This document shows, one piece after another, positions 1,034-42,229 of a stretch of DNA of 42,229 nt; the first letter of the stretch is position 1; each line of letters begins with the position of its first letter. The notes under the pieces were generated by a model that saw only the letters and a list, made by a program, of their open reading frames with translations, was not told the DNA's origin and did no database searches. The stretch lies in IMG/VR virus record IMGVR_UViG_2718217897_000004; one strand, 5' to 3'. The stretch is from a virus (taxonomy: Duplodnaviria > Heunggongvirae > Uroviricota > Caudoviricetes). Position numbers and translations under genes: made by a program.

Positions 1034-2059
1034 TTACTTGGAATATTTTCTTGGAATATTTTCAGGTAACGGGACATCAAGTGTTGGTGAAACTTTAACC
1101 TTCCTGTCATAGATTAGCACTTGCCCTTCGGTTTTGTGACCAGAGAAAAGTTGCTTATCCCGGCTGCTTCCTTCATAGTCTGAAATTCCTTTCGCCTTCA
1201 GATCATGAAAGGTGAAGTCGGTTAAAATACCTGAAATTTTTCCAGCACGATTTCTTGCTTCTACCCACATTTCGTTAAAGCCTTTGTACATATATCGGTT
1301 GCCGTATTGATTGCTGATCACATAGGCAGATTTTGGTAACTGTTTTGCTTTTTCGATCGCTGCCTGTAATCGTGGACTCCATGCTTTTATCTGTTTTTTT
1401 CCGGTTTTCCCTTGCTGGATGAATATCCCGTCGTTTCCAATCTGTTCCCATTTCAGCGATAACACATCGGAAACCCTCGCTGCACACAGATAGGCAATTT
1501 CCATTGCGATAAAAACAGGAAGAGGTGCAACGCTTAATACTTCCTGGTATTCTTTGTCGGTTACATATCGTTCGCGGTTTTTGGCCTTGAATTTACTTAC
1601 ACCTGCACATGGGTTAGCCTTCACGTACCCTCGCTCATACCCCCAACTGTAAACACGGGACATACTGCTTTTTTCATGGTTGGCTTGCGTTTTACTCTGC
1701 TCCCCTCTTTTGTCCATGTATCGACGGATGTGTTCTGGTTTTATGGAATCCGCTGGTACCTTACCGAATACGGCAAGCAACTTTTTTTGATGTTGCAGAT
1801 AATCTTTTTGTGTTCTTGGACTAAGGTCACTGTAATAGGCGCTGGCGAGGAATTTTTCCCACAAGCGACCGAATGTCATTGCACGATCGCGATTATTTAC
1901 AGTTTCCTCATACTTTTTCCATAAAGCAGCTAAACCATCCTTGATGGCGGTTAGTGTGACAGATTCTCTGGATGTTGGTTTCCATACATAACTATATTTA
2001 TTTGGGTATACATTTGGAGGTAATTTTTCGTGTTCAGGATTTTTCCTTCGTCTTCCCAT
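1034..2059 (-). CDS. int: Phage integrase, tyrosine site-specific recombinase
   Basis: 341-aa ORF reading toward the tRNA; typical position and size; stop/start overlap with the upstream excisionase ORF. Confidence 0.88.
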   Translation of the reverse strand: MGRRRKNPEHEKLPPNVYPNKYSYVWKPTSRESVTLTAIKDGLAALWKKYEETVNNRDRAMTFGRLWEKFLASAYYSDLSPRTQKDYLQHQKKLLAVFGKVPADSIKPEHIRRYMDKRGEQSKTQANHEKSSMSRVYSWGYERGYVKANPCAGVSKFKAKNRERYVTDKEYQEVLSVAPLPVFIAMEIAYLCAARVSDVLSLKWEQIGNDGIFIQQGKTGKKQIKAWSPRLQAAIEKAKQLPKSAYVISNQYGNRYMYKGFNEMWVEARNRAGKISGILTDFTFHDLKAKGISDYEGSSRDKQLFSGHKTEGQVLIYDRKVKVSPTLDVPLPENIPRKYSK

Positions 2060-2262
2060 CAGATCGCACCAAAATTCGGCTCTACCTCGCGTGGTGGTAA
2101 AGTTTTATTGCAGGTAAATAGATCCCGGCTGACAATCGGTTTGCCACTACGATTGGTATAGAACGGAAGCCCGTTTTCCATTAACCATTTTCGCTGGTGG
2201 CTTGCATATTTGCAGCCCGTTAATATTAGCAATTCATCTTCGGTTAAAAATAAGCTGCTCAT
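2059..2262 (-). CDS. xis: Excisionase-like small DNA-binding protein
   Basis: 67-aa ORF immediately upstream of int with TGATG overlap; small basic protein at the xis position. Confidence 0.6.
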   Translation of the reverse strand: MSSLFLTEDELLILTGCKYASHQRKWLMENGLPFYTNRSGKPIVSRDLFTCNKTLPPREVEPNFGAI

Positions 2263-2320
2263 AGCTATATCTCATAACCGCCGCTAACTATATACGGTTA
2301 GCGGCAATTAGGGTTGAACA

Positions 2321-4747
2321 TTAAAAATCAGCCTGACTCGGGATCAGTTTTTGCCAGATAGCTGAAACGTATTTTGCCTGGTAACGAGCGTCATCAAGTG
2401 CATTATGGCGCTCACCTTCGAATGGGATAGCAGTTCTGGCATCGAAGTCTATGGCTTTCCCCAGCTCAACGATTGTGCGTACATCGCGATCGTTGCAGTA
2501 GCGCCACGGGCAGGGGATACCCTGTCGTTCGTATGAACGGCGTAAAATCACGTTGTCGAAGTTGGCCCCATTACCCCAGACCTGAACAAAAAATTCACCG
2601 GAGTTTTCGTCGATAAATTCCCGCAATTGCAGTAGTGCATCATCTAACGGGATTTCATCGGTCATAATGGCAGACTGCGCCTCACGTGATTGCTTCAGCC
2701 ACCATTTAATGACGTCACGATCAATGACTCCGCCAGCAGTATCCAGATCGATGGTCTTGCTAAATTCCGGTCCCATATCTCCGGTTTGTGGATCGAAAAA
2801 TATTGCGCCTATTGAGATAATCGGGGCATCGGGATTTTTTCCCATGGTTTCAAGGTCGATCATCAGATGAATCCCCGCTCTGCTGGTGGATGTGAGTTTA
2901 TGATGACCATTCACCTTAATTAAGGGATCTGTCGCCTCGCCAGTTTTATTATCGCTGGCGTGATGCTGATTGCCGCCAGGGTTCTCCTTGTGTGGATGTT
3001 CAGCGCCTTCCATTTCCTCCGGAACATTTTCCTGAACTTCAACCTGATTCTCTTCATCGAATGTTTCCTGGTATGTTGCGTCGCCCATCACCGCGCCACA
3101 ATCAGGGCAGTTGCCGCCACCCCTCTGACCGCAGGCGGTGCAGACTTTTTCCGGTTCCTGTTGCGCTACTGGTTCGGATTGTTTCGTTTCTGGCTCGTTT
3201 TGTAACGCATTTGGGCTGTTTTGTTCCGCTTTTTGGTCGTTCCGTTCCGATTCATGCTGGTTCTGGTTCACAGAATCGCGAGTCTGGATCCCCTTGACCC
3301 ATTTCGGATCATTAGGGTCGCTAATCCCCTCAACAAATTCACCACGCGATACAGCAAGTAACTTATCGGCGTCAGGCTGGCTGATATTGGCTGCCTGCAT
3401 AATTTTGTTTACTTCGTCAGCGGTGACTTTTACTTGGTTAGCGGAACTCACCTGCGACTGAACGTTCTGGCAATGTTCAGTTGTATCCGGTTCCATTGTT
3501 TCAGTTGTTGCCTGTTCACCTGCCATTGCGTCAGATGGTTGTGGTTTTTCTTCCTCTGTTTCACGTTCAGTAACCACCTCGCGGTTAATTTCTTCCAGGA
3601 TATCTTTTTCCGGCGTATGCCGGGCAGCTGTGAGAGTTTCCTTGCTGGGGTTCTCGTGATCAGTTTCCGTCAAATAGGCGTTGATATACCCCTGAAGGCG
3701 TCCCGGGTAGTGATAAAATTCAGGGTGTGCGCTTCGGATAAGTGCAAAAATAGCGGCGCGGGAATAGTCCAGAATACCCGGGGTTGCACGAAGTGCTGCG
3801 GACCATTCTTTGAACGGACTTTCTTTTTTCAGGACTACTTCTTTTGCGCGACGATAAACGCTGCCCGGAATTTCATAAATATTAAAATCCATCGGAAGTG
3901 TGGCTGCTGCAATCTCCACATCCAGTGTGTCGAGGGTGTGTACTAAATTCGGATTGCGATCGGTTTTGTTCCCACCGCCAGCATTAGCACCGGAAGCCGT
4001 GCGGGTGATGCGTGAAACACGATTTCCTTTCATCCACTCTTTTGTCAGCAGACCCCGATCAATGTAGTCAGCGTCCAGGTATGCTTCGAAAAAAGCAGTT
4101 ATTAGTCCCAGGTCTGAATTACCAGGATTAGGGAAAACTTTGTCAGTGTCACGAACCAGTTTGTGGAGGTCGCGAATCTCCAGCGAGTCGAGCAGACTGG
4201 TTTTATGCGAAATAGCCAGAGCAGTAACAGCCGGTAGTTCTTCAGCCCGTGCAATGTGTAATGCCTGGAGTTCGTCGCGTGAAACGTGCGTTACTGGTTT
4301 TTCGCTGCCGTGTTGAGCAAGCCAACGAATGGGCAGTTCCTGACCGGAGACAGGCAGAAGCATGCTCTCCTCAATCTCAGTCATGTCTTCGCCGTTGATG
4401 TTGGTATTGTCAGTGCTGGCTGGTTTGTCCTGAACAGAGGGGGAAGGGCCGATAAATGTCATTGTGATGCCATCTTTCCCGCCTTTTTCATAGCGGTTGC
4501 AGAATTCAGTATCAAACACGCCTTCTGGCGGAAGGTCGTCAACAACGGGCAAATTGACGCGGACGGGTTTTTTAAAGTCGTCTTCATCATAATCGTTGTC
4601 ATCCATTGCGGTAATGCAGCGGGAGATTGCAACAGATAATTTTTTTGCTGTAGTCCAGTAAAAACCACCTTTAATTCCCAGGCGTTTTCTTACTTTGTCA
4701 TTTTTTGCTTCGCAATATAGTGCAAATTCTTCTTTATCAGTGCTCAT
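2321..4747 (-). CDS. Phage exonuclease: large N-terminal region with Cys4 zinc ribbon fused to a C-terminal DnaQ-like (DEDDh) 3'-5' exonuclease domain (of the kind annotated exodeoxyribonuclease VIII in prophages)
   Basis: 808-aa ORF; C-terminal MIDLETMG...WGNGANFDN...HNALDDARY motifs fit exonuclease motifs I-III; CTACGQRGGGNCPDCG zinc ribbon mid-protein; occupies the exo/recombination slot of the leftward operon. Confidence 0.75.
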   Translation of the reverse strand: MSTDKEEFALYCEAKNDKVRKRLGIKGGFYWTTAKKLSVAISRCITAMDDNDYDEDDFKKPVRVNLPVVDDLPPEGVFDTEFCNRYEKGGKDGITMTFIGPSPSVQDKPASTDNTNINGEDMTEIEESMLLPVSGQELPIRWLAQHGSEKPVTHVSRDELQALHIARAEELPAVTALAISHKTSLLDSLEIRDLHKLVRDTDKVFPNPGNSDLGLITAFFEAYLDADYIDRGLLTKEWMKGNRVSRITRTASGANAGGGNKTDRNPNLVHTLDTLDVEIAAATLPMDFNIYEIPGSVYRRAKEVVLKKESPFKEWSAALRATPGILDYSRAAIFALIRSAHPEFYHYPGRLQGYINAYLTETDHENPSKETLTAARHTPEKDILEEINREVVTERETEEEKPQPSDAMAGEQATTETMEPDTTEHCQNVQSQVSSANQVKVTADEVNKIMQAANISQPDADKLLAVSRGEFVEGISDPNDPKWVKGIQTRDSVNQNQHESERNDQKAEQNSPNALQNEPETKQSEPVAQQEPEKVCTACGQRGGGNCPDCGAVMGDATYQETFDEENQVEVQENVPEEMEGAEHPHKENPGGNQHHASDNKTGEATDPLIKVNGHHKLTSTSRAGIHLMIDLETMGKNPDAPIISIGAIFFDPQTGDMGPEFSKTIDLDTAGGVIDRDVIKWWLKQSREAQSAIMTDEIPLDDALLQLREFIDENSGEFFVQVWGNGANFDNVILRRSYERQGIPCPWRYCNDRDVRTIVELGKAIDFDARTAIPFEGERHNALDDARYQAKYVSAIWQKLIPSQADF

Positions 4748-4840
4748 TATTGGTAAACCTCATCACAGATTTAAGGGTGAACAAATCTCTGCCATTGCTG
4801 ACATATAAGAATGAAACTGGATATTTATTACGGTGCTGTT

Positions 4841-5032
4841 TTAAAATTCTGCCGGGATTTCGTTATTATCCTGGTGAATAACTTTATCGACCGGATAACA
4901 GCTGCCTGGAATTTTCTGTTCGGTTGCTGCTGCCATACATTCCTGCATTGTTCTGTGAACACTGACTGCAATATCAACTGGCTCTCCGGAAACAAGAAAA
5001 ACCGTCAGAATAAGTGCAAATACTGGATTCAT
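4841..5032 (-). CDS. Small membrane/secreted protein at the ydfD position (YdfD-like)
   Basis: 63-aa frame from internal ATG MNPVFALILTVFLVSG... with hydrophobic N-terminus; AAGGA SD about 8 nt upstream; 4-nt overlap with dicB stop. Equivalence to YdfD is from position and length only. Confidence 0.45.
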   Translation of the reverse strand: MNPVFALILTVFLVSGEPVDIAVSVHRTMQECMAAATEQKIPGSCYPVDKVIHQDNNEIPAEF

Positions 5033-5217
5033 TGTGCACATCCTTTTGGCATCAGACGTAAACGGGCCAGCATTGAAACAATGCATACTTTATTTAATAA
5101 CTCCCGTTCGTGTTTTCTTTTGTTAATGGCATCTTCAGTAAATACAGGATTACTGATAGTGACACCAATTTCAAAACAACCTTCAGACGTATTAACGTTT
5201 GGTAATAACGTTTTCAT
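5029..5217 (-). CDS. dicB: Cell-division inhibitor DicB
   Basis: 62-aa frame MKTLLPNVNTSEGCFEIGVTISNPVFTEDAINKRK...SMLARLRLMPKGCAQ matches recalled DicB nearly residue for residue. Confidence 0.85.
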   Translation of the reverse strand: MKTLLPNVNTSEGCFEIGVTISNPVFTEDAINKRKHERELLNKVCIVSMLARLRLMPKGCAQ

Positions 5218-5386
5218 TATCGCGCCCTCAACAATGAGTTTTGTGATGCGGTGCCTGGTGCCTCCAGGTGACGTTAACCAGTTAACAATTAACGCCGGAT
5301 ACAGAGAATCCACCCATAACACTGTTTTTGGTTTTAACTGTTCCGCGTGCGCTTAGCCGCATTCACCGCATCACAAAATTCACTTT

Positions 5387-5444
5387 AAAAAGGGCGGCAG
5401 AGCAGTCACGGAGTAAAACTGATACCGCCAAACGTCACCAGAAA
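5387..5444 (-). ncRNA. dicF: DicF small regulatory RNA (53 nt) with 3' U-tract
   Basis: Minus strand reads TTTCTGGTGACGTTTGGCGGTATCAGTTTTACTCCGTGACTGCTCTGCCGCCC followed by TTTTT, which matches recalled DicF; sits immediately upstream of dicB as in Qin. Confidence 0.85.
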
Positions 5445-5784
5445 ATTGATAACAGAGGGCGTTGCAGCGGGGTTATCACTTAAGCGTATGGTCAACCTGA
5501 CAACCCGGTGTCCTCAACGGGGAAGGAATAACCCCGCCATACTTACCGCCGCGCCATTTCGCGGAGTGCCACAACCGGAAGCGCACGGTCGACGAAAATT
5601 TAACGACAGGCTATCTATGAACCAGCTACCTCGCCGTGCGCTTTCGCGTTATGGTCTGACTTTTCATGGAAATATCCTTTCAGTAAACTGTCAGTGCCGG
5701 ATGCTCACCCGTGTCCGGCGCACGCACTCCACCTCACCCGTGGAGAACTCCTTAATTACCAACCTTAGCTTCGTTGGTTAGCTA

Positions 5785-38466: not shown

Positions 38467-38530
38467 TTAGCCAGGTAACACAGTGTTATGACAGCCCGCC
38501 GGTTCAGGCGGGCTTTTTTGTGGAGTGGAT

Positions 38531-40936
38531 ATGGCAGCAGTAAAAATCTCAGGTGTGCTGAAAGATGGTGCGGGAAAACCAATACAGAACTGCACTATTC
38601 AACTGAAGGCAAAGCGTAACAGCACCACGGTACTGGTGAACACGGTGGCTTCTGAAAATCCGGATGAAGCCGGACGTTACAGCATGGATGTTGAGTATGG
38701 CCAGTACAGCGTCACCCTGCTGGTTGAAGGTTTTCCGCCTTCACATGCCGGGACCATTACCGTCTATGAAGGCTCCAGACCAGGTACGCTGAATGATTTT
38801 CTCGGTGCCATGACGGAAGATGATGTCATGCCGGAGGCATTGCGTCGTTTTGAGGCAATGGTGGAAGAAGTGGCACGCAACGCCGAAGCCGCCTCTCAGA
38901 GCGCAGCGGCGGCAAAGAAATCCGAAACTGCAGCGGCATCATCAAAGAACGCGGCGAAAACCTCAGAAACGAATGCAGCTAATAGTGCACAGGCGGCAGC
39001 GACCTCAAAGACTGCATCGGCAAACTCCGCGACAGCAGCCAAAAAATCAGAAACCAACGCGAAAAATAGCGAGACAGCCGCAAAGACGAGCGAAACCAAC
39101 GCAAAGTCCAGCCAGACGGCAGCGAAAACCAGCGAAACGAATGCCAAAGCCAGTGAAACTGCGGCGAAAAGCAGTCAGGCTGCAGCAGCCCAAAGCGAGA
39201 GCGCGGCAGCCGGTTCTGCGACTTCAGCAGCTGGATCAGCAACTGCTGCGGCTAACAGCCAGAAAGCTGCGAAGACGAGTGAAACTAACGCAAAGTCCAG
39301 CCAGACGGCAGCGAAGACCAGCGAAACGAATGCCAAAGCCAGTGAAACTGCGGCGAAAAGCAGTCAGGATGCAGCGGCCCAAAGCGAGAGTGCCGCAGCC
39401 AGTTCTGCAAGCGCGGCGGCTGCTTCTGCCACTGCATCAGCTAACAGTCAAAAAGCAGCAAAAACCAGTGAAACCAACGCAAAGGCGAGCGAGACTGCGG
39501 CGGCGAACTCGGCGCAAGCATCGGCAGCAAGCCAGACAGCAGCTAAAGCAAGTGAAGACGCAGCCAGAGAGTATGCAAGCCAGGCAGCGGAGCCGTATAA
39601 ACAAGTTTTGCAGCCGTTGCCCGATGTGTGGATACCGTTTAATGATTCACTGGATATGATTACGGGCTTTTCGCCATCATATAAAAAAATTGTTATTGGC
39701 GACGATGAAATAACAATGCCTGGCGACAAGATTGTAAAGTTTAAACGCGCATCGAAAGCAACTTACATTAATAAATCTGGTGTGCTGACAGAGGCTGCCA
39801 TTGACGGGCCACGATTTGAACGTGATGGCCTGCTTATTGAGGGGCAAAGAACTAACCTGCTAATCAATTCAACAAATCCGACTAAATGGAACAAGTCGTC
39901 AAATATGATCTTAAGTGCATCAGGTGTAGATGATTTCGGATTCCAGTACGCAAAATTTACATTAAAACCAGAAATGGTAGGGCAAATTTCAGCGATTAAC
40001 ATAGTAACCGTTTCCGGCAGTAAAGGTTTTGATGTAACAGGCGGAGAAAAGTATGTAACCATATCATGCAGGGTGCAAAGTGGCACTCCAAATTTAAGAT
40101 GCCGATTACGATTTGAAAACTATGATGGTTCTACCTACACATTCTTAGGTGACGCTTACTTAAATACGACAGATTTATCTATTGATAAGACGGGTGGTGC
40201 CGCTAATCGCATTACTGCAAGGGCTGTTAAAGATGAAGCAAGCAAATGGATCTTTTTTGAGGCGACAATTAAGGCACTTGATACAGAAAATATGATAGGT
40301 GGAATGGTTCAGTATGCCCCGGCAAAAGGAGTGGGCACTGGCGCGGATGATTATATTTATATTGCGACCCCTCAAGTTGAAGGTGGGGCGTGCGCTTCAT
40401 CGTTTATTATAACAGGCGCATCCCCTGTAACACGCGCCAGCGATATTGTAACGGTCCCCATTTCTCTAAATTGGTGCAATCCCGCTATTAGTTCATTAGC
40501 AGAAGTTAATACCAATTGGGATGAATCGCCAAACAAAGAAGGTAGCGCACGTATTCTTAATATTTCCACTACGGGAGATACAACTGAAATTGCAGATGAA
40601 AGTTATATGTATTTGGGGTATACATCTTTGGGAGCACGCGCAATCATTACAAATGGTAAAGGCACTAAAATAGAATATAAAAGCGTTATAGAACGACCAG
40701 AGAGAAAAAGCATTATCGGCTTTAGATTCACAGAAAGTCGAGAATTGTGTGTTGTGGTTAACGGTAATATTGGTGCTAAGGTAGTTTCTCCTTATAAAAA
40801 ACACAAATATACAGGAGGCTTCATTAATATTGGTGGTCAATCATCATCCGGCAACCGTCACCTATTTGGACACGTTCGAAATCTGCGTATTTGGCACAAG
40901 GCATTGACTGATGCTCAGATGGGGGAGTCAATCTAA
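38531..40936 (+). CDS. Side tail fibre protein (lambda Stf-like N-terminus; Ala/Ser/Thr-rich repeat shaft; distinct C-terminal domain)
   Basis: N-terminal MAAVKISGVLKDGAGKPIQNCTIQLKAKRNSTTV... matches recalled lambda Stf; C-terminal about 440 aa is visibly more AT-rich and ends ...NLRIWHKALTDAQMGE, which resembles a LamG/ConA-like lectin motif. Confidence 0.85.
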   Translation: MAAVKISGVLKDGAGKPIQNCTIQLKAKRNSTTVLVNTVASENPDEAGRYSMDVEYGQYSVTLLVEGFPPSHAGTITVYEGSRPGTLNDFLGAMTEDDVMPEALRRFEAMVEEVARNAEAASQSAAAAKKSETAAASSKNAAKTSETNAANSAQAAATSKTASANSATAAKKSETNAKNSETAAKTSETNAKSSQTAAKTSETNAKASETAAKSSQAAAAQSESAAAGSATSAAGSATAAANSQKAAKTSETNAKSSQTAAKTSETNAKASETAAKSSQDAAAQSESAAASSASAAAASATASANSQKAAKTSETNAKASETAAANSAQASAASQTAAKASEDAAREYASQAAEPYKQVLQPLPDVWIPFNDSLDMITGFSPSYKKIVIGDDEITMPGDKIVKFKRASKATYINKSGVLTEAAIDGPRFERDGLLIEGQRTNLLINSTNPTKWNKSSNMILSASGVDDFGFQYAKFTLKPEMVGQISAINIVTVSGSKGFDVTGGEKYVTISCRVQSGTPNLRCRLRFENYDGSTYTFLGDAYLNTTDLSIDKTGGAANRITARAVKDEASKWIFFEATIKALDTENMIGGMVQYAPAKGVGTGADDYIYIATPQVEGGACASSFIITGASPVTRASDIVTVPISLNWCNPAISSLAEVNTNWDESPNKEGSARILNISTTGDTTEIADESYMYLGYTSLGARAIITNGKGTKIEYKSVIERPERKSIIGFRFTESRELCVVVNGNIGAKVVSPYKKHKYTGGFINIGGQSSSGNRHLFGHVRNLRIWHKALTDAQMGESI
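39101..39408 (+). repeat. Near-identical direct repeat (about 120 bp, two copies, 189-bp period) within the tail-fibre shaft
   Basis: 39101-39219 and 39290-39408 differ at only a few positions; encode repeated ...KTSETNAKSSQTAAKTSETNAKASETAAKSSQ... Confidence 0.6.
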
Positions 40937-41217
40937 TGAAAGATTTAACACTCAAATTTGCCGACAGGGCCGACTTTTCGGCCTTTATGGGAAGTATTGG
41001 CTATTATAATGACGAGTCGATGCAGGATGATATTCTGATTGATGTGATAGGTAACGTGTACAAAGAAACCGGAGAGCTGACTGAAGATGGCGAACCGGTA
41101 TGTGTTAAGGAAGATGGATATTTTGTAAACGTGCGCATCATTAAGGATACGCAAATATCGTCATTATTCGATGAATACGCGGTTGCTGTTGAGCATCAAC
41201 TTCGTGGCTGGATGTGA
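40936..41217 (+). CDS. Hypothetical acidic protein following the tail fibre gene
   Basis: 93-aa ORF overlapping the stf stop by 1 nt. Confidence 0.4.
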   Translation: MKDLTLKFADRADFSAFMGSIGYYNDESMQDDILIDVIGNVYKETGELTEDGEPVCVKEDGYFVNVRIIKDTQISSLFDEYAVAVEHQLRGWM

Positions 41218-41226
41218 GGTAGAGAA

Positions 41227-41931
41227 ATGGCTACATCAACAGTAATTCCGGGAGACATCACCACGCTGAAGGGAGATGTTAGTAAAGCAAAGGAAGATAT
41301 TTCCTCTATTAACGGAAAAGTATCAACGCTTCAGACTGATATGGCCAGTGCAAAGCAGGATATCAGCACCAGATACACAAAAACTGAAGTTGATAATAAG
41401 CTGAAAAACAAAGTGGAAGTGAACGATCTGGAAAGTGGTCGTTATGGCGGAGATTTTTACCCGCTGACTGGCCGTGAAGCGTTTTATTTATGGGGATTGG
41501 GCACAACTACAGCGGCGGCAAATCTTTATCTTAATCCTGACCCTGCAATTTCGTCTGTGCTGCGGTCAACATCGTCTATCCGCTATAAACATTCAGTAGA
41601 GACGATAGATTCAGAGCACGCCGATCTCATTTTCAGGATGCGCCCTGTGTGGTACAGGTCGCAATGCGAAAATGACAGGCGTGACTGGGGATTCTATGGA
41701 TTGATTGCCGAGGAAGTTGGAGAAATTGCCCCTCAGTTTGTTCACTGGCGACCAGCCAACGAAGATGATGCACCGGAAACCATTTCCAGCAATGGCCTTG
41801 TTGCCGAAGGTGTAATGTACGAACGTCTGGTTGTTCCACTGATTCACCATATCCAGAAGCTGACTGAAAGAGTTGATGAACTTGAGTCAGAATTAAAGTT
41901 GTTATCCGTTTCCCGAAGCGATATCGGATAA
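41227..41931 (+). CDS. Short tail-fibre-like protein: N-terminal coiled coil plus C-terminal intramolecular chaperone (peptidase S74-like) domain
   Basis: 234 aa; heptad-like N-terminus; C-terminal SSIRYKHSV...DWGFYGLIAEEVGEIAPQFV resembles the endosialidase/tail-fibre chaperone signature. Confidence 0.5.
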   Translation: MATSTVIPGDITTLKGDVSKAKEDISSINGKVSTLQTDMASAKQDISTRYTKTEVDNKLKNKVEVNDLESGRYGGDFYPLTGREAFYLWGLGTTTAAANLYLNPDPAISSVLRSTSSIRYKHSVETIDSEHADLIFRMRPVWYRSQCENDRRDWGFYGLIAEEVGEIAPQFVHWRPANEDDAPETISSNGLVAEGVMYERLVVPLIHHIQKLTERVDELESELKLLSVSRSDIG

Positions 41932-41941
41932 AGGAGGCGTA

Positions 41942-42229
41942 ATGGATATAACACCTTTCCTTCATGCACTTTGTGCTGTGGCTGCGCAGGTACTGGTTGG
42001 TCTTTTTACCGGAAACTGGGCTTACGGGGCGATAGCTGGTTGTACGTTCTTCATTGCGCGTGAACATACCCAGGCAGAATATCGCTGGATTGAAATGTTC
42101 GGGCATGGCAAGCGGATTAACATGCCGTGGTGGGGCGGTTTTGATCCACGTGCATGGGATGTGGCAAGCCTGATGGATTTTGCTGTGCCGGTGGTGGCGT
42201 GTCTGCTGATCTGGATGTTGATCCGTTAA
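41942..42229 (+). CDS. Small membrane protein at the distal end of the tail-fibre region
   Basis: 95-aa ORF with GGAGG SD; predicted TM helices at both ends; stop codon is the last 3 nt of the window. Confidence 0.45.
   Translation: MDITPFLHALCAVAAQVLVGLFTGNWAYGAIAGCTFFIAREHTQAEYRWIEMFGHGKRINMPWWGGFDPRAWDVASLMDFAVPVVACLLIWMLIR

What the first reader, a model, noticed from the sequence alone, without database searches (positions are those of the whole stretch)
41227..41931. Minimal 234-aa protein combining a coiled coil with an S74-type intramolecular chaperone domain
Intramolecular chaperone domains normally sit at the C-terminus of long tail fibres or tailspikes and are auto-cleaved after trimerisation. 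Here the putative cleavage motif (SSIRYKHSV) leaves only about 110 aa of coiled coil as the mature part, with no receptor-binding domain between. This could be a stubby accessory fibre, a trans-acting chaperone for the upstream Stf-like protein, or a remnant of module exchange.
Basis: partly seen in the sequence, partly recalled or inferred. Interest (0 to 1): 0.5.

Follow-up and report, generated by a model that had tools for sequence, protein, structure and literature searches.

The report
Minimal distal side-tail-fibre subunit
This 234-aa prophage protein is a real but very small tail-fibre piece: a docking peptide, a short coiled coil, a tiny tip and a probably self-cleaving folding domain. 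It most likely plugs onto the end of the phage's side tail fibre, and it belongs to a widespread, already catalogued but experimentally unstudied family.

Summary
ORF 41227-41931 encodes 234 aa with a canonical heptad coiled coil (aa 11-49) and a Peptidase_S74 intramolecular chaperone domain (IMC). Pfam scores 27.2 bits against a cut-off of 22, and the confidently modelled C-terminal domain best matches the MyRF, GA-1 and endoNF chaperone domains. T115-S116...K121 reproduces the T5 pb1 scissile bond and Ser/Lys dyad, so the predicted mature product is 115 aa.

It is the third gene of a conserved cassette: an Stf-like proximal fibre with a LamG-like end, a ~93-aa protein, and a protein starting M(A/V)TxTxIPxDITxLK. 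That N-terminal anchor also heads a 346-aa S74 protein, the 574-aa T-shaped fibre of phage IrisVonRoten, and 330-340-aa fibres served by separate Tfa chaperones. Of 120 anchor matches in viral contigs, 116 have the 93-aa gene and the LamG-type fibre end upstream.

Best reading: a stubby distal fibre or cap on Stf, folded by its own IMC in cis. Both halves are under purifying selection, so it is not a remnant. A role as a trans-acting chaperone for Stf is disfavoured but not excluded. The gene is common (about 13% of complete E. coli genomes) and annotated only generically. I rate it a new variant of a known kind, of moderate interest.

The parts
41227..41931 (+). Complete gene for the 234-aa mini-fibre (26.2 kDa precursor), stop codon included
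   Evidence: ORF list; 100% identical to RefSeq WP_000235980.1 'tail fiber domain-containing protein' in E. coli LH85-a; phrog_3299 E=2.3e-140
41227..41274 (+). N-terminal anchor peptide, aa 1-16 (MATSTVIPGDITTLKG). Inferred docking module for the proximal-fibre end
   Evidence: M1 T3 T5 I7 P8 D10 I11 L14 K15 are invariant across the position-3 proteins of six phages from four lineages with unrelated bodies. 116 of 120 matches to the motif in viral contigs lie just downstream of a 93-aa gene and a LamG-type fibre end
41251..41373 (+). Heptad-repeat coiled coil, aa 9-49 (about 5.5 heptads, roughly 6 nm)
   Evidence: Unbroken 3-4 hydrophobic spacing; AF2 helix 9-49; homologues differ by whole 7-aa units; weak match to P22-like gp26 needle heptads
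41374..41436 (+). Linker, aa 50-70 (YTKTEVDNKL...). Homology with the C-termini of long one-piece fibres begins here
   Evidence: Long fibres P0065, P0066, P0071 and P0072 align from about aa 28-49 onward; the YTKTEVD motif is shared with a T5-like fibre
41437..41571 (+). Pre-cleavage tip, aa 71-115, ending in Thr115. Conserved, not hypervariable
   Evidence: 60-82% identity to homologues diverged beyond ~90% overall identity, comparable with the IMC core. N99 is invariant and T94 and R113 nearly so. Most remote S74 relatives start aligning at about aa 85-93. AF2 confidence is low, as expected for a trimer-dependent fold
41572..41589 (+). Predicted autoproteolytic site: Ser116 nucleophile and Lys121 base (S-x4-K). 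Scissile bond T115|S116
   Evidence: S116 and K121 invariant; same T-S...K geometry as T5 pb1 Thr1263-Ser1264/Lys1269 and MYRF S578/K583
41572..41928 (+). S74 intramolecular chaperone domain, aa 116-234 (13.8 kDa), including the C-terminal helix aa 198-233
   Evidence: Pfam PF13884 at aa 116-172; AF2 pLDDT 81-96; Foldseek hits 7dc3, 3gud and 3gw6
40936..41217 (+). 93-aa conserved partner gene (phrog_1361). Its start overlaps the Stf stop (TAATG). Candidate connector or Stf assembly factor
   Evidence: 88-94% identical in phages whose position-3 proteins differ, 45% in Drexlerviridae; present in 181 phage records; confident AF2 alpha/beta model with no clear structural relative
38525..40936 (+). 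Stf-like proximal side tail fibre, 803 aa. Architecture: phage_tail_N, then an Ala-rich rod, then a conserved junction (aa 362 onward), then a GTA_spike_fiber-like domain and a LamG-like C-terminal module
   Evidence: Pfam PF08400 E=5.5e-67; NCBIfam NF048003 at aa 437-638; weak Laminin_G_3 match at the C-terminus; junction and C-terminal motif conserved in nine phages
41942..42229 (+). 95-aa putative membrane protein, last gene of the operon. Its association with the fibre is uncertain
   Evidence: phrog_1443; the phage 21 homologue is annotated with 2 TMDs and directly follows the 92-aa gene there

Best explanation
The gene encodes the smallest allele of the exchangeable distal subunit of a multi-part side (lateral) tail fibre.

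Proposed mechanism:
1. Three chains are brought into register from the C-terminus by the S74 intramolecular chaperone (aa 116-234). This is inferred from family membership.
2. The chaperone templates the ~45-aa tip and lets the 5.5-heptad coiled coil zip up.
3. Once the trimer is correctly folded, Ser116 (activated by Lys121) cleaves the T115-S116 bond and the 13.8-kDa chaperone leaves. The residues are shown to be present; the cleavage itself is inferred.
4. The mature product is a trimer of 12.4-kDa chains about 10 nm long. Its conserved N-terminal peptide (MATSTVIPGDITTLK) docks on the C-terminal module of the Stf proximal fibre, possibly through the 93-aa protein. This is inferred from strict gene linkage across phage lineages and from a published AlphaFold-Multimer model of the homologous IrisVonRoten fibre.

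Because the tip is conserved and not hypervariable, the stub either binds a conserved surface ligand or merely caps the docking site. Which of the two applies is not resolved.
For: S74 identity and catalytic dyad.

Conserved cassette. The arrangement Stf(LamG-like end) - ~93 aa - position-3 protein occurs in lambdoid phages (this window, PhiR49_1, Tritos, IdasGreatGrand, PhiR55_1), Queuovirinae (ESCO3, VogelGryff), Drexlerviridae (PeterMerian, KarlJaspers, SECphi27, swan01), T5-like IrisVonRoten and a prophage whose fibre carries a Phage_fiber_2 repeat.

Shared anchor. The same N-terminal anchor heads bodies of 221-268, 346-351, 388 and 574 aa.

Linkage. 116 of 120 anchor matches in IMG/VR have the 93-aa gene and an 'R[IVL]WH' fibre end upstream.

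What the anchor docks on. The proximal fibres have different tail-attachment N-termini (phage_tail_N, none detected, Phage_fiber_2), so the only constant partner is their C-terminal module plus the 93-aa protein.

Published model. Humolli et al. 2025 model IrisVonRoten Gp24, which has the same anchor and position, as a distal fibre attached to proximal Gp22 with a galectin-like C-terminus.

Position-3 proteins are folded by chaperones; they are not chaperones for Stf. Anchor-bearing proteins without S74 (L110, L116) are fibre proteins (Gp34_trimer, gp37_trimer) followed by Caudo_TAP chaperone genes.

Selection. omega is 0.14-0.31 for aa 1-115 and 0.09-0.33 for the IMC, in two lineages.

Operon. 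The gene is co-transcribed with stf: start and stop codons overlap or are separated by at most ~10 nt, and no internal promoter or terminator was found.
Against: - No direct evidence of trimerisation, cleavage, virion incorporation or binding to Stf. No multimer prediction could be run here.
- The tip region is modelled with low confidence.
- The tip is conserved, which is unusual for a host-range determinant.
- BASEL annotators called the Drexlerviridae orthologues 'putative lateral tail fiber chaperone'.
- Phage 21 shows that the Stf type works, or at least persists, without a position-3 gene. The stub is therefore dispensable in some backgrounds and its benefit is unknown.
- The role of the 93-aa protein is unassigned.
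Confidence: 0.6

Rival explanations
1. Trans-acting assembly factor for Stf. The anchor and coiled coil grip three nascent Stf C-termini, the IMC-driven trimer sets their register, and the protein is then cleaved and partly or wholly discarded. This is the sense of the 'lateral tail fiber chaperone' annotations.
For: It lies where lambda tfa lies, downstream of stf. It is annotated as a chaperone in BASEL phages and others. The Stf C-terminus is a LamG-like globular module with no obvious trimerisation nucleator of its own. The body is minimal and has no receptor-binding domain, and the tip is conserved.
Against: The same anchor and position are used by genuine fibres of 346-574 aa, and by fibres that have their own Tfa. 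Phage 21-type operons keep Stf and the 92-aa gene but lack any S74 gene, so this Stf type does not generally need one. There is no similarity to Caudo_TAP or other assembly families. S74 domains are described as acting on their own chain, with cleavage coupled to folding of the adjoining trimer. That they act only in cis is recalled knowledge and was not verified here.
Confidence: 0.15
2. An independent short fibre that attaches somewhere other than Stf, for example the tail tip or baseplate, and is merely encoded next to stf.
For: The attachment site has not been observed. Small accessory fibres exist in many phages.
Against: The anchor is linked to the Stf C-terminal module and the 93-aa gene in 116 of 120 loci. 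This holds across siphovirus lineages with unrelated tail tips and different fibre N-termini, so a lineage-specific tail docking site is unlikely. The published multimer model for the IrisVonRoten homologue places it on the proximal fibre.
Confidence: 0.1
3. A non-functional remnant: a distal fibre that lost its receptor-binding body by deletion and is on its way to pseudogenisation.
For: It looks like an anchor fused to the terminal cassette of longer fibres. Truncated copies of position-3 genes occur in some prophages.
Against: omega is about 0.1-0.3 over both halves. Full-length orthologues at 54-62% identity are kept in about 40 lytic Drexlerviridae genomes. It is the commonest allele: 61 of 109 complete ORFs in the viral-contig sample. 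Indels preserve the heptad phase.
Confidence: 0.04

Closest known systems
IrisVonRoten (Bas32) Gp24 T-shaped distal lateral tail fibre and its Gp22/Gp23 partners (Humolli et al. 2025, PMC11990801)
   Same: Identical cassette order: proximal fibre with a LamG/galectin-like end, a 92-93-aa protein, then the distal protein. Same N-terminal anchor motif and a C-terminal S74 IMC.
   Different: Gp24 is 574 aa with two receptor-binding domains. The window protein is 234 aa, with only heptads and a ~45-aa tip between anchor and IMC.
[quoted passage not shown]
   Same: S74 IMC with a Thr-Ser scissile bond and Lys at +5. The chaperone caps the fibre tip and is released after trimer folding. A YTKTEVD-type motif lies upstream.
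   Different: pb1 is a 1396-aa one-piece fibre with a ~290-aa bullet-shaped receptor-binding domain before the cleavage site. Here the whole mature protein is 115 aa and is a separate gene product. The IMC is 119 aa against 133.
K1F endosialidase (endoNF) and GA-1 gp12 C-terminal intramolecular chaperone domains, and the MyRF ICA domain
   Same: Pfam family and predicted fold; conserved Ser/Lys dyad.
   Different: Those chaperones fold triple-beta-helix stalks of large enzymes or appendages, or release a transcription factor. Here the substrate is essentially a coiled coil with a minimal tip.
One-piece Stf and other long fibres ending in the same tip+IMC cassette (e.g. P0065, 735 aa; P0071, 1243 aa; phrog_3299)
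   Same: 49-61% identity from about aa 28-49 to the C-terminus. P0066 ends in a tail identical to this protein's (...KLTERVDELESELKLLSVSRSDIG), and P0065 has the same Stf N-terminus as this window.
   Different: In those proteins the cassette is covalently joined to the rod. Here it is a separate polypeptide with its own docking peptide, and the Stf ends in a LamG-like module.
Lambda Tfa / Caudo_TAP tail-fibre assembly proteins
   Same: Gene position immediately downstream of the fibre gene; involvement in fibre maturation.
   Different: No sequence or domain similarity. Tfa acts in trans. In loci L110 and L116 a Caudo_TAP gene follows an anchor-bearing protein, which shows that the two roles are distinct.
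T4 fibritin (wac) with its C-terminal foldon
   Same: By analogy only: a trimeric coiled coil whose registration depends on a small C-terminal nucleating domain.
   Different: Not homologous. The foldon is retained and not cleaved, and fibritin attaches at the neck. This comparison rests on recalled knowledge and was not tested.

Membership tests
Peptidase_S74 / C-terminal intramolecular chaperone domain (PF13884) | HMM match above the curated gathering score | tested here: met
   27.2 bits against 22, E=4.7e-6, aa 116-172 covering profile positions 1-57 of 58
Peptidase_S74 / C-terminal intramolecular chaperone domain (PF13884) | Catalytic Ser with Lys at +5 at the start of the domain | tested here: met
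   S116 and K121 are invariant in 24 homologues and align with T5 pb1 S1264/K1269 and MYRF S578/K583
Peptidase_S74 / C-terminal intramolecular chaperone domain (PF13884) | Fold of solved IMCs: an alpha/beta body, a beta-hairpin and a long C-terminal helix | tested here: met
   AF2 pLDDT 81-96 for aa ~120-233. Foldseek: 7dc3 E=1.3e-5 (prob 1.0), 3gud, 3gw6
Peptidase_S74 / C-terminal intramolecular chaperone domain (PF13884) | Trimer-dependent autoproteolysis and release of the domain | not testable with these tools
   Needs expression of the wild type and S116A/K121A mutants. The folding-sensor Arg (T5 Arg1250) could not be assigned; R113 is nearly invariant but its position differs.
Anchor-bearing distal subunits of LamG-ended lateral/side tail fibres (IrisVonRoten Gp24 type) | N-terminal motif M(A/V)TxTxIPxDITxLK | tested here: met
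   All nine invariant anchor positions are present
Anchor-bearing distal subunits of LamG-ended lateral/side tail fibres (IrisVonRoten Gp24 type) | Encoded directly after a ~92-93-aa phrog_1361 gene and a proximal fibre ending ...LFGHxRNxRIWHKxLTD | tested here: met
   Window genes 38525-40936 and 40936-41217. The same linkage is seen in 116 of 120 viral-contig loci
Anchor-bearing distal subunits of LamG-ended lateral/side tail fibres (IrisVonRoten Gp24 type) | A receptor-binding body between anchor and C-terminal chaperone | tested here: not met
   There are only heptads, a linker and a 45-aa tip that is conserved and co-inherited with the IMC. This is why I call it a minimal variant.
Anchor-bearing distal subunits of LamG-ended lateral/side tail fibres (IrisVonRoten Gp24 type) | Physical attachment to the proximal fibre in the virion | not testable with these tools
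   Only a published AlphaFold-Multimer model for the homologue exists.
Caudo_TAP (lambda Tfa-type) tail-fibre assembly proteins | Match to PF02413 | tested here: not met
   No hit at E<=1. As positive controls, the L110 and L116 downstream ORFs score 1e-27 and 5e-37

The most novel reading that the evidence does not exclude
The stub works as a cleavable, intermolecular 'assembly clamp' and does not itself bind a receptor. An intramolecular chaperone domain would be borrowed to trimerise and register a different protein. The anchor and coiled coil would transmit IMC-driven trimerisation to the Stf C-terminal LamG-type module, which lacks its own nucleator. After cleavage only a small cap would remain on the fibre. 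That would be the first case of an S74 chaperone domain serving a partner polypeptide.
Probability: 0.12. Interest if true: 0.65.

Novelty: new variant of a known kind. Interest (0 to 1): 0.35.

Why it matters
If the model is right, this is the smallest natural substrate of an S74 intramolecular chaperone: 115 residues, mostly coiled coil. It would also be the commonest occupant of an exchangeable docking site at the end of LamG-type side tail fibres in E. coli prophages and several lytic phage families.

Two uses follow. It would be a compact system for studying chaperone-coupled trimer folding and autocleavage. It would also define a 16-residue anchor that could be used to graft new receptor-binding modules onto lambda-like, T1-like and T5-like fibres. 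Finally, it would correct inconsistent database names (chaperone of endosialidase, tail fiber chaperone, hypothetical protein).

It does not reveal a new kind of system.

Tried and rejected
- Canonical Tfa/assembly protein: rejected. There is no Pfam or NCBIfam match.
- Co-variation between the Stf junction segment and presence of the S74 gene. The segment is conserved in all nine Stf proteins, and phage 21 (no S74 gene) is merely the most divergent. With n=1 this is only a hint.
- Literature: no paper was found on the short protein itself. The SH6 and KMI8 papers concern one-piece fibres. The Eligo lambda-Stf paper and the fibre-atlas preprint do not treat this cassette.
- No held source could confirm that S74 domains fail in trans, so that point is marked as recalled.
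- Multimer or paired-MSA prediction of Stf, the 93-aa protein and the stub was not possible. The tool is monomer-only and sequences from other loci are not accepted.

Full report
**1. The observation**

The window is a lambdoid E. coli prophage. J, lom and an Stf-like gene precede the finding. The last 1.43 kb is 100% identical to the chromosome of E. coli LH85-a, where the prophage ends about 1 kb before zinT.

ORF 41227-41931 (+) encodes 234 aa exactly as reported. The stf stop overlaps the start of a 93-aa ORF (TAATG). The 234-aa ORF follows 9 nt later behind a GAGG motif, and a 95-aa ORF follows 10 nt after that behind AGGAGG. No promoter- or terminator-like site on the + strand separates them. 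The four genes therefore form one operon.

**2.

- *Coiled coil.* Residues I11 L14 V18 A21 I25 I28 V32 L35 M39 A42 I46 have perfect 3-4 spacing. AF2 predicts a helix at 9-49. Among homologues of 221-269 aa, the length differences in this stretch are whole heptads.
- *S74 domain.* Pfam Peptidase_S74 matches aa 116-172 above its gathering score (27.2 against 22 bits, E=4.7e-6). phmmer against PDB sequences finds the C-terminus of a T5-like L-shaped fibre and the MyRF ICA domain. An AF2 model built on 24 homologues is confident for aa ~120-233 (pLDDT 81-96). Its best Foldseek hits are MyRF ICA (7dc3, E=1.3e-5), the GA-1 IMC (3gud) and the endoNF IMC (3gw6).
- *Cleavage motif.* SSIRYKHSV is aa 116-124. 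S116 and K121 are invariant. T115-S116...K121 reproduces the T5 pb1 scissile bond Thr1263-Ser1264 and its Lys1269, and the MYRF S578/K583 dyad.
- *Predicted products.* A 12.4-kDa mature chain (aa 1-115) and a 13.8-kDa chaperone.

One correction: only about 40 of the 115 mature residues are coiled coil.

**3. Anatomy of the mature part**

Comparing 21 short homologues gives five regions besides the IMC core. The ranges below are identity to the window protein among homologues that have diverged beyond ~90% overall identity.

| Region | Residues | Identity |
|---|---|---|
| Anchor | 1-16 | 62-75% |
| Heptads | 17-49 | 21-69%; only the pattern is kept |
| Linker | 50-70 | 29-61% |
| Tip | 71-115 | 60-82% |
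| IMC core | 116-197 | 67-86% |
| Terminal helix | 198-227 | 43-73% |

An exhaustive search of 1.84 billion representatives finds 3583 relatives (E<=1e-3). Most begin to align at about aa 85-93, so the last ~25 residues before the cut belong to this IMC subtype's conserved unit. A closer set of long E. coli phage fibres (588-1243 aa) aligns from about aa 28-49 to the end. P0065 is a 735-aa Stf with the same N-terminus as this window's Stf, and P0066 ends in an identical tail. The phrog_3299 match to profile positions 1147-1384 of 1385 says the same.

The protein is therefore an anchor and a few heptads joined to the terminal tip+IMC cassette that elsewhere ends one-piece fibres.

**4. Context: a conserved cassette**

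The same gene order recurs widely: a proximal fibre ending ...LFGHxRNxRIWHKxLTD, a 92-93-aa protein, and then a 'position-3' protein. It occurs in:

- lambdoid phages PhiR49_1, IdasGreatGrand, PhiR55_1, Tritos and PhiR46_1;
- Queuovirinae ESCO3 and VogelGryff;
- Drexlerviridae PeterMerian, KarlJaspers, SECphi27 and swan01;
- T5-like IrisVonRoten.

The position-3 proteins range from 221 to 574 aa and have unrelated middles. All start with M(A/V)TxTxIPxDITxLK.

In 116 of them the 93-aa gene and the RIWH fibre end lie immediately upstream. Of 109 complete ORFs, 61 are 229-241 aa (49 of them exactly 234 aa) and 39 are 345-346 aa, and 101 carry an S74 motif.

Two loci (L110, L116) put the same anchor on 330-340-aa proteins with Gp34_trimer, gp37_trimer or Gp53-like_C domains. 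Each is followed by a Caudo_TAP chaperone gene.

The proximal fibres have different N-terminal tail-attachment domains: phage_tail_N in lambdoid phages and Queuovirinae, none detected in Drexlerviridae and the T5-like phage, and a Phage_fiber_2 repeat in L116. Their junction segment and C-terminal motif are conserved. The only constant partner of the anchor is thus the proximal fibre's C-terminal module plus the 93-aa protein.

Humolli et al. (2025) modelled IrisVonRoten Gp24 (same anchor, same position) as a distal fibre attached to proximal Gp22, whose C-terminus bears a galectin-like domain. The window Stf likewise has a GTA_spike_fiber-like domain and a weak Laminin_G_3 end.

**5. Mechanism**

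The best-supported reading is that the 234-aa protein is the minimal allele of this exchangeable distal subunit.

- Shown: the S74 domain, the dyad, the heptads, the anchor, the linkage and operon membership.
- Inferred: the IMC trimerises the chains from the C-terminus, folds the small tip and registers the coiled coil. Ser116/Lys121 then cut T115|S116 and the IMC leaves, as in T5 pb1. The mature ~10-nm stub docks by its anchor on the Stf end.

Because the tip is conserved, the stub either binds a conserved ligand or simply caps the site. The data cannot decide between these.

**6. Rivals**

- *Trans-acting chaperone for Stf.* This is the BASEL 2021 annotation. It is weakened because genuine fibres, including ones that need Tfa, share the anchor and position. 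Phage 21-type operons also retain this Stf type and the 92-aa gene with no S74 gene. It is not excluded, since the Stf end has no obvious trimerisation nucleator.
- *Decaying remnant.* This is contradicted by omega of about 0.1-0.3 in both halves in two lineages, by retention in about 40 lytic Drexlerviridae genomes, by phase-preserving indels, and by its being the commonest allele.
- *Attachment elsewhere on the tail.* This is unlikely given that the linkage holds across different tail types.

**7. Comparison and novelty**

The protein meets every testable criterion for an S74 IMC. It also meets the anchor and linkage criteria of the IrisVonRoten-type distal fibres, but it lacks their receptor-binding body. 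It is not a Caudo_TAP protein.

The gene is common. At least 80% of the 1.43-kb query is present in 719 of 5426 complete E. coli genomes. RefSeq names it only 'tail fiber domain-containing protein'. I found no paper addressing it. Other short S74 proteins (183-242 aa) with unrelated N-termini exist in metagenomes, so the minimal architecture is not unique.

I rate it a new variant of a known kind, of moderate interest. It would make a neat minimal model for IMC-assisted folding and provides a portable docking peptide, but it is not a new principle.

**8. Limits**

No multimer prediction or experiment was possible. Docking, cleavage and virion presence are inferences. The 93-aa partner gives a confident alpha/beta model (pLDDT 82.6) but has no informative structural relative. 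The statement that S74 domains act only in cis is recalled and was not verified.

Noticed in passing
window 41942-42229 (+): A 95-aa ORF (phrog_1443) with two hydrophobic segments ends the stf operon, and the window stops exactly at its stop codon. Its phage 21 homologue is annotated as a 2-TMD membrane protein and there follows the 92-aa gene directly, with no S74 gene between them. It may be a moron or exclusion protein and not a fibre part.
   Followed up: partly
[not shown]
   Followed up: partly
window 38525-40936 (+); L002 3732-5735: RefSeq annotates the identical Stf in E. coli LH85-a as a pseudogene 'missing C-terminus', yet the ORF here is intact (803 aa, GTG start). This is probably an annotation artefact caused by the unusual C-terminal module.
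   Followed up: no
window about 39833-40438 (Stf aa 437-638) and 40745-40936: The Stf C-terminal region matches NCBIfam GTA_spike_fiber (E=1.8e-16) and ends in a weak Laminin_G_3-like segment with the motif LFGHVRNLRIWHKALTDAQMGESI. This suggests a glycan-binding head on the proximal fibre itself.
   Followed up: partly
window 38865-39590 (Stf aa ~115-355): A long Ala/Ser/Thr/Lys-rich repetitive rod (KTSETNAKASETAAKSSQ-like units) generates many spurious ORFs in other frames and on the opposite strand.
   Followed up: no
window 38493-38514 (+): A strong terminator-like hairpin (8 bp, 7 GC, followed by a T-run) sits between lom and the stf start. Expression of the stf operon would therefore depend on read-through or antitermination.
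   Followed up: no
L028, L034, L044, L090, L099, L104 (IMG/VR prophage contigs): Anchor-bearing position-3 ORFs are truncated to 90-227 aa, apparently as frameshifted or pseudogenised copies. Most are of the 346-aa allele; L090 is a truncated 234-aa allele.
   Followed up: no
L110 rc 581-1994; L116 rc 1316-5512: The same N-terminal anchor sits on Gp34_trimer/gp37_trimer-type fibres that are followed by Caudo_TAP chaperone genes. In L116 the proximal fibre carries a Phage_fiber_2 repeat, so the cassette crosses into phages whose proximal fibre has another type of N-terminal region.
   Followed up: partly
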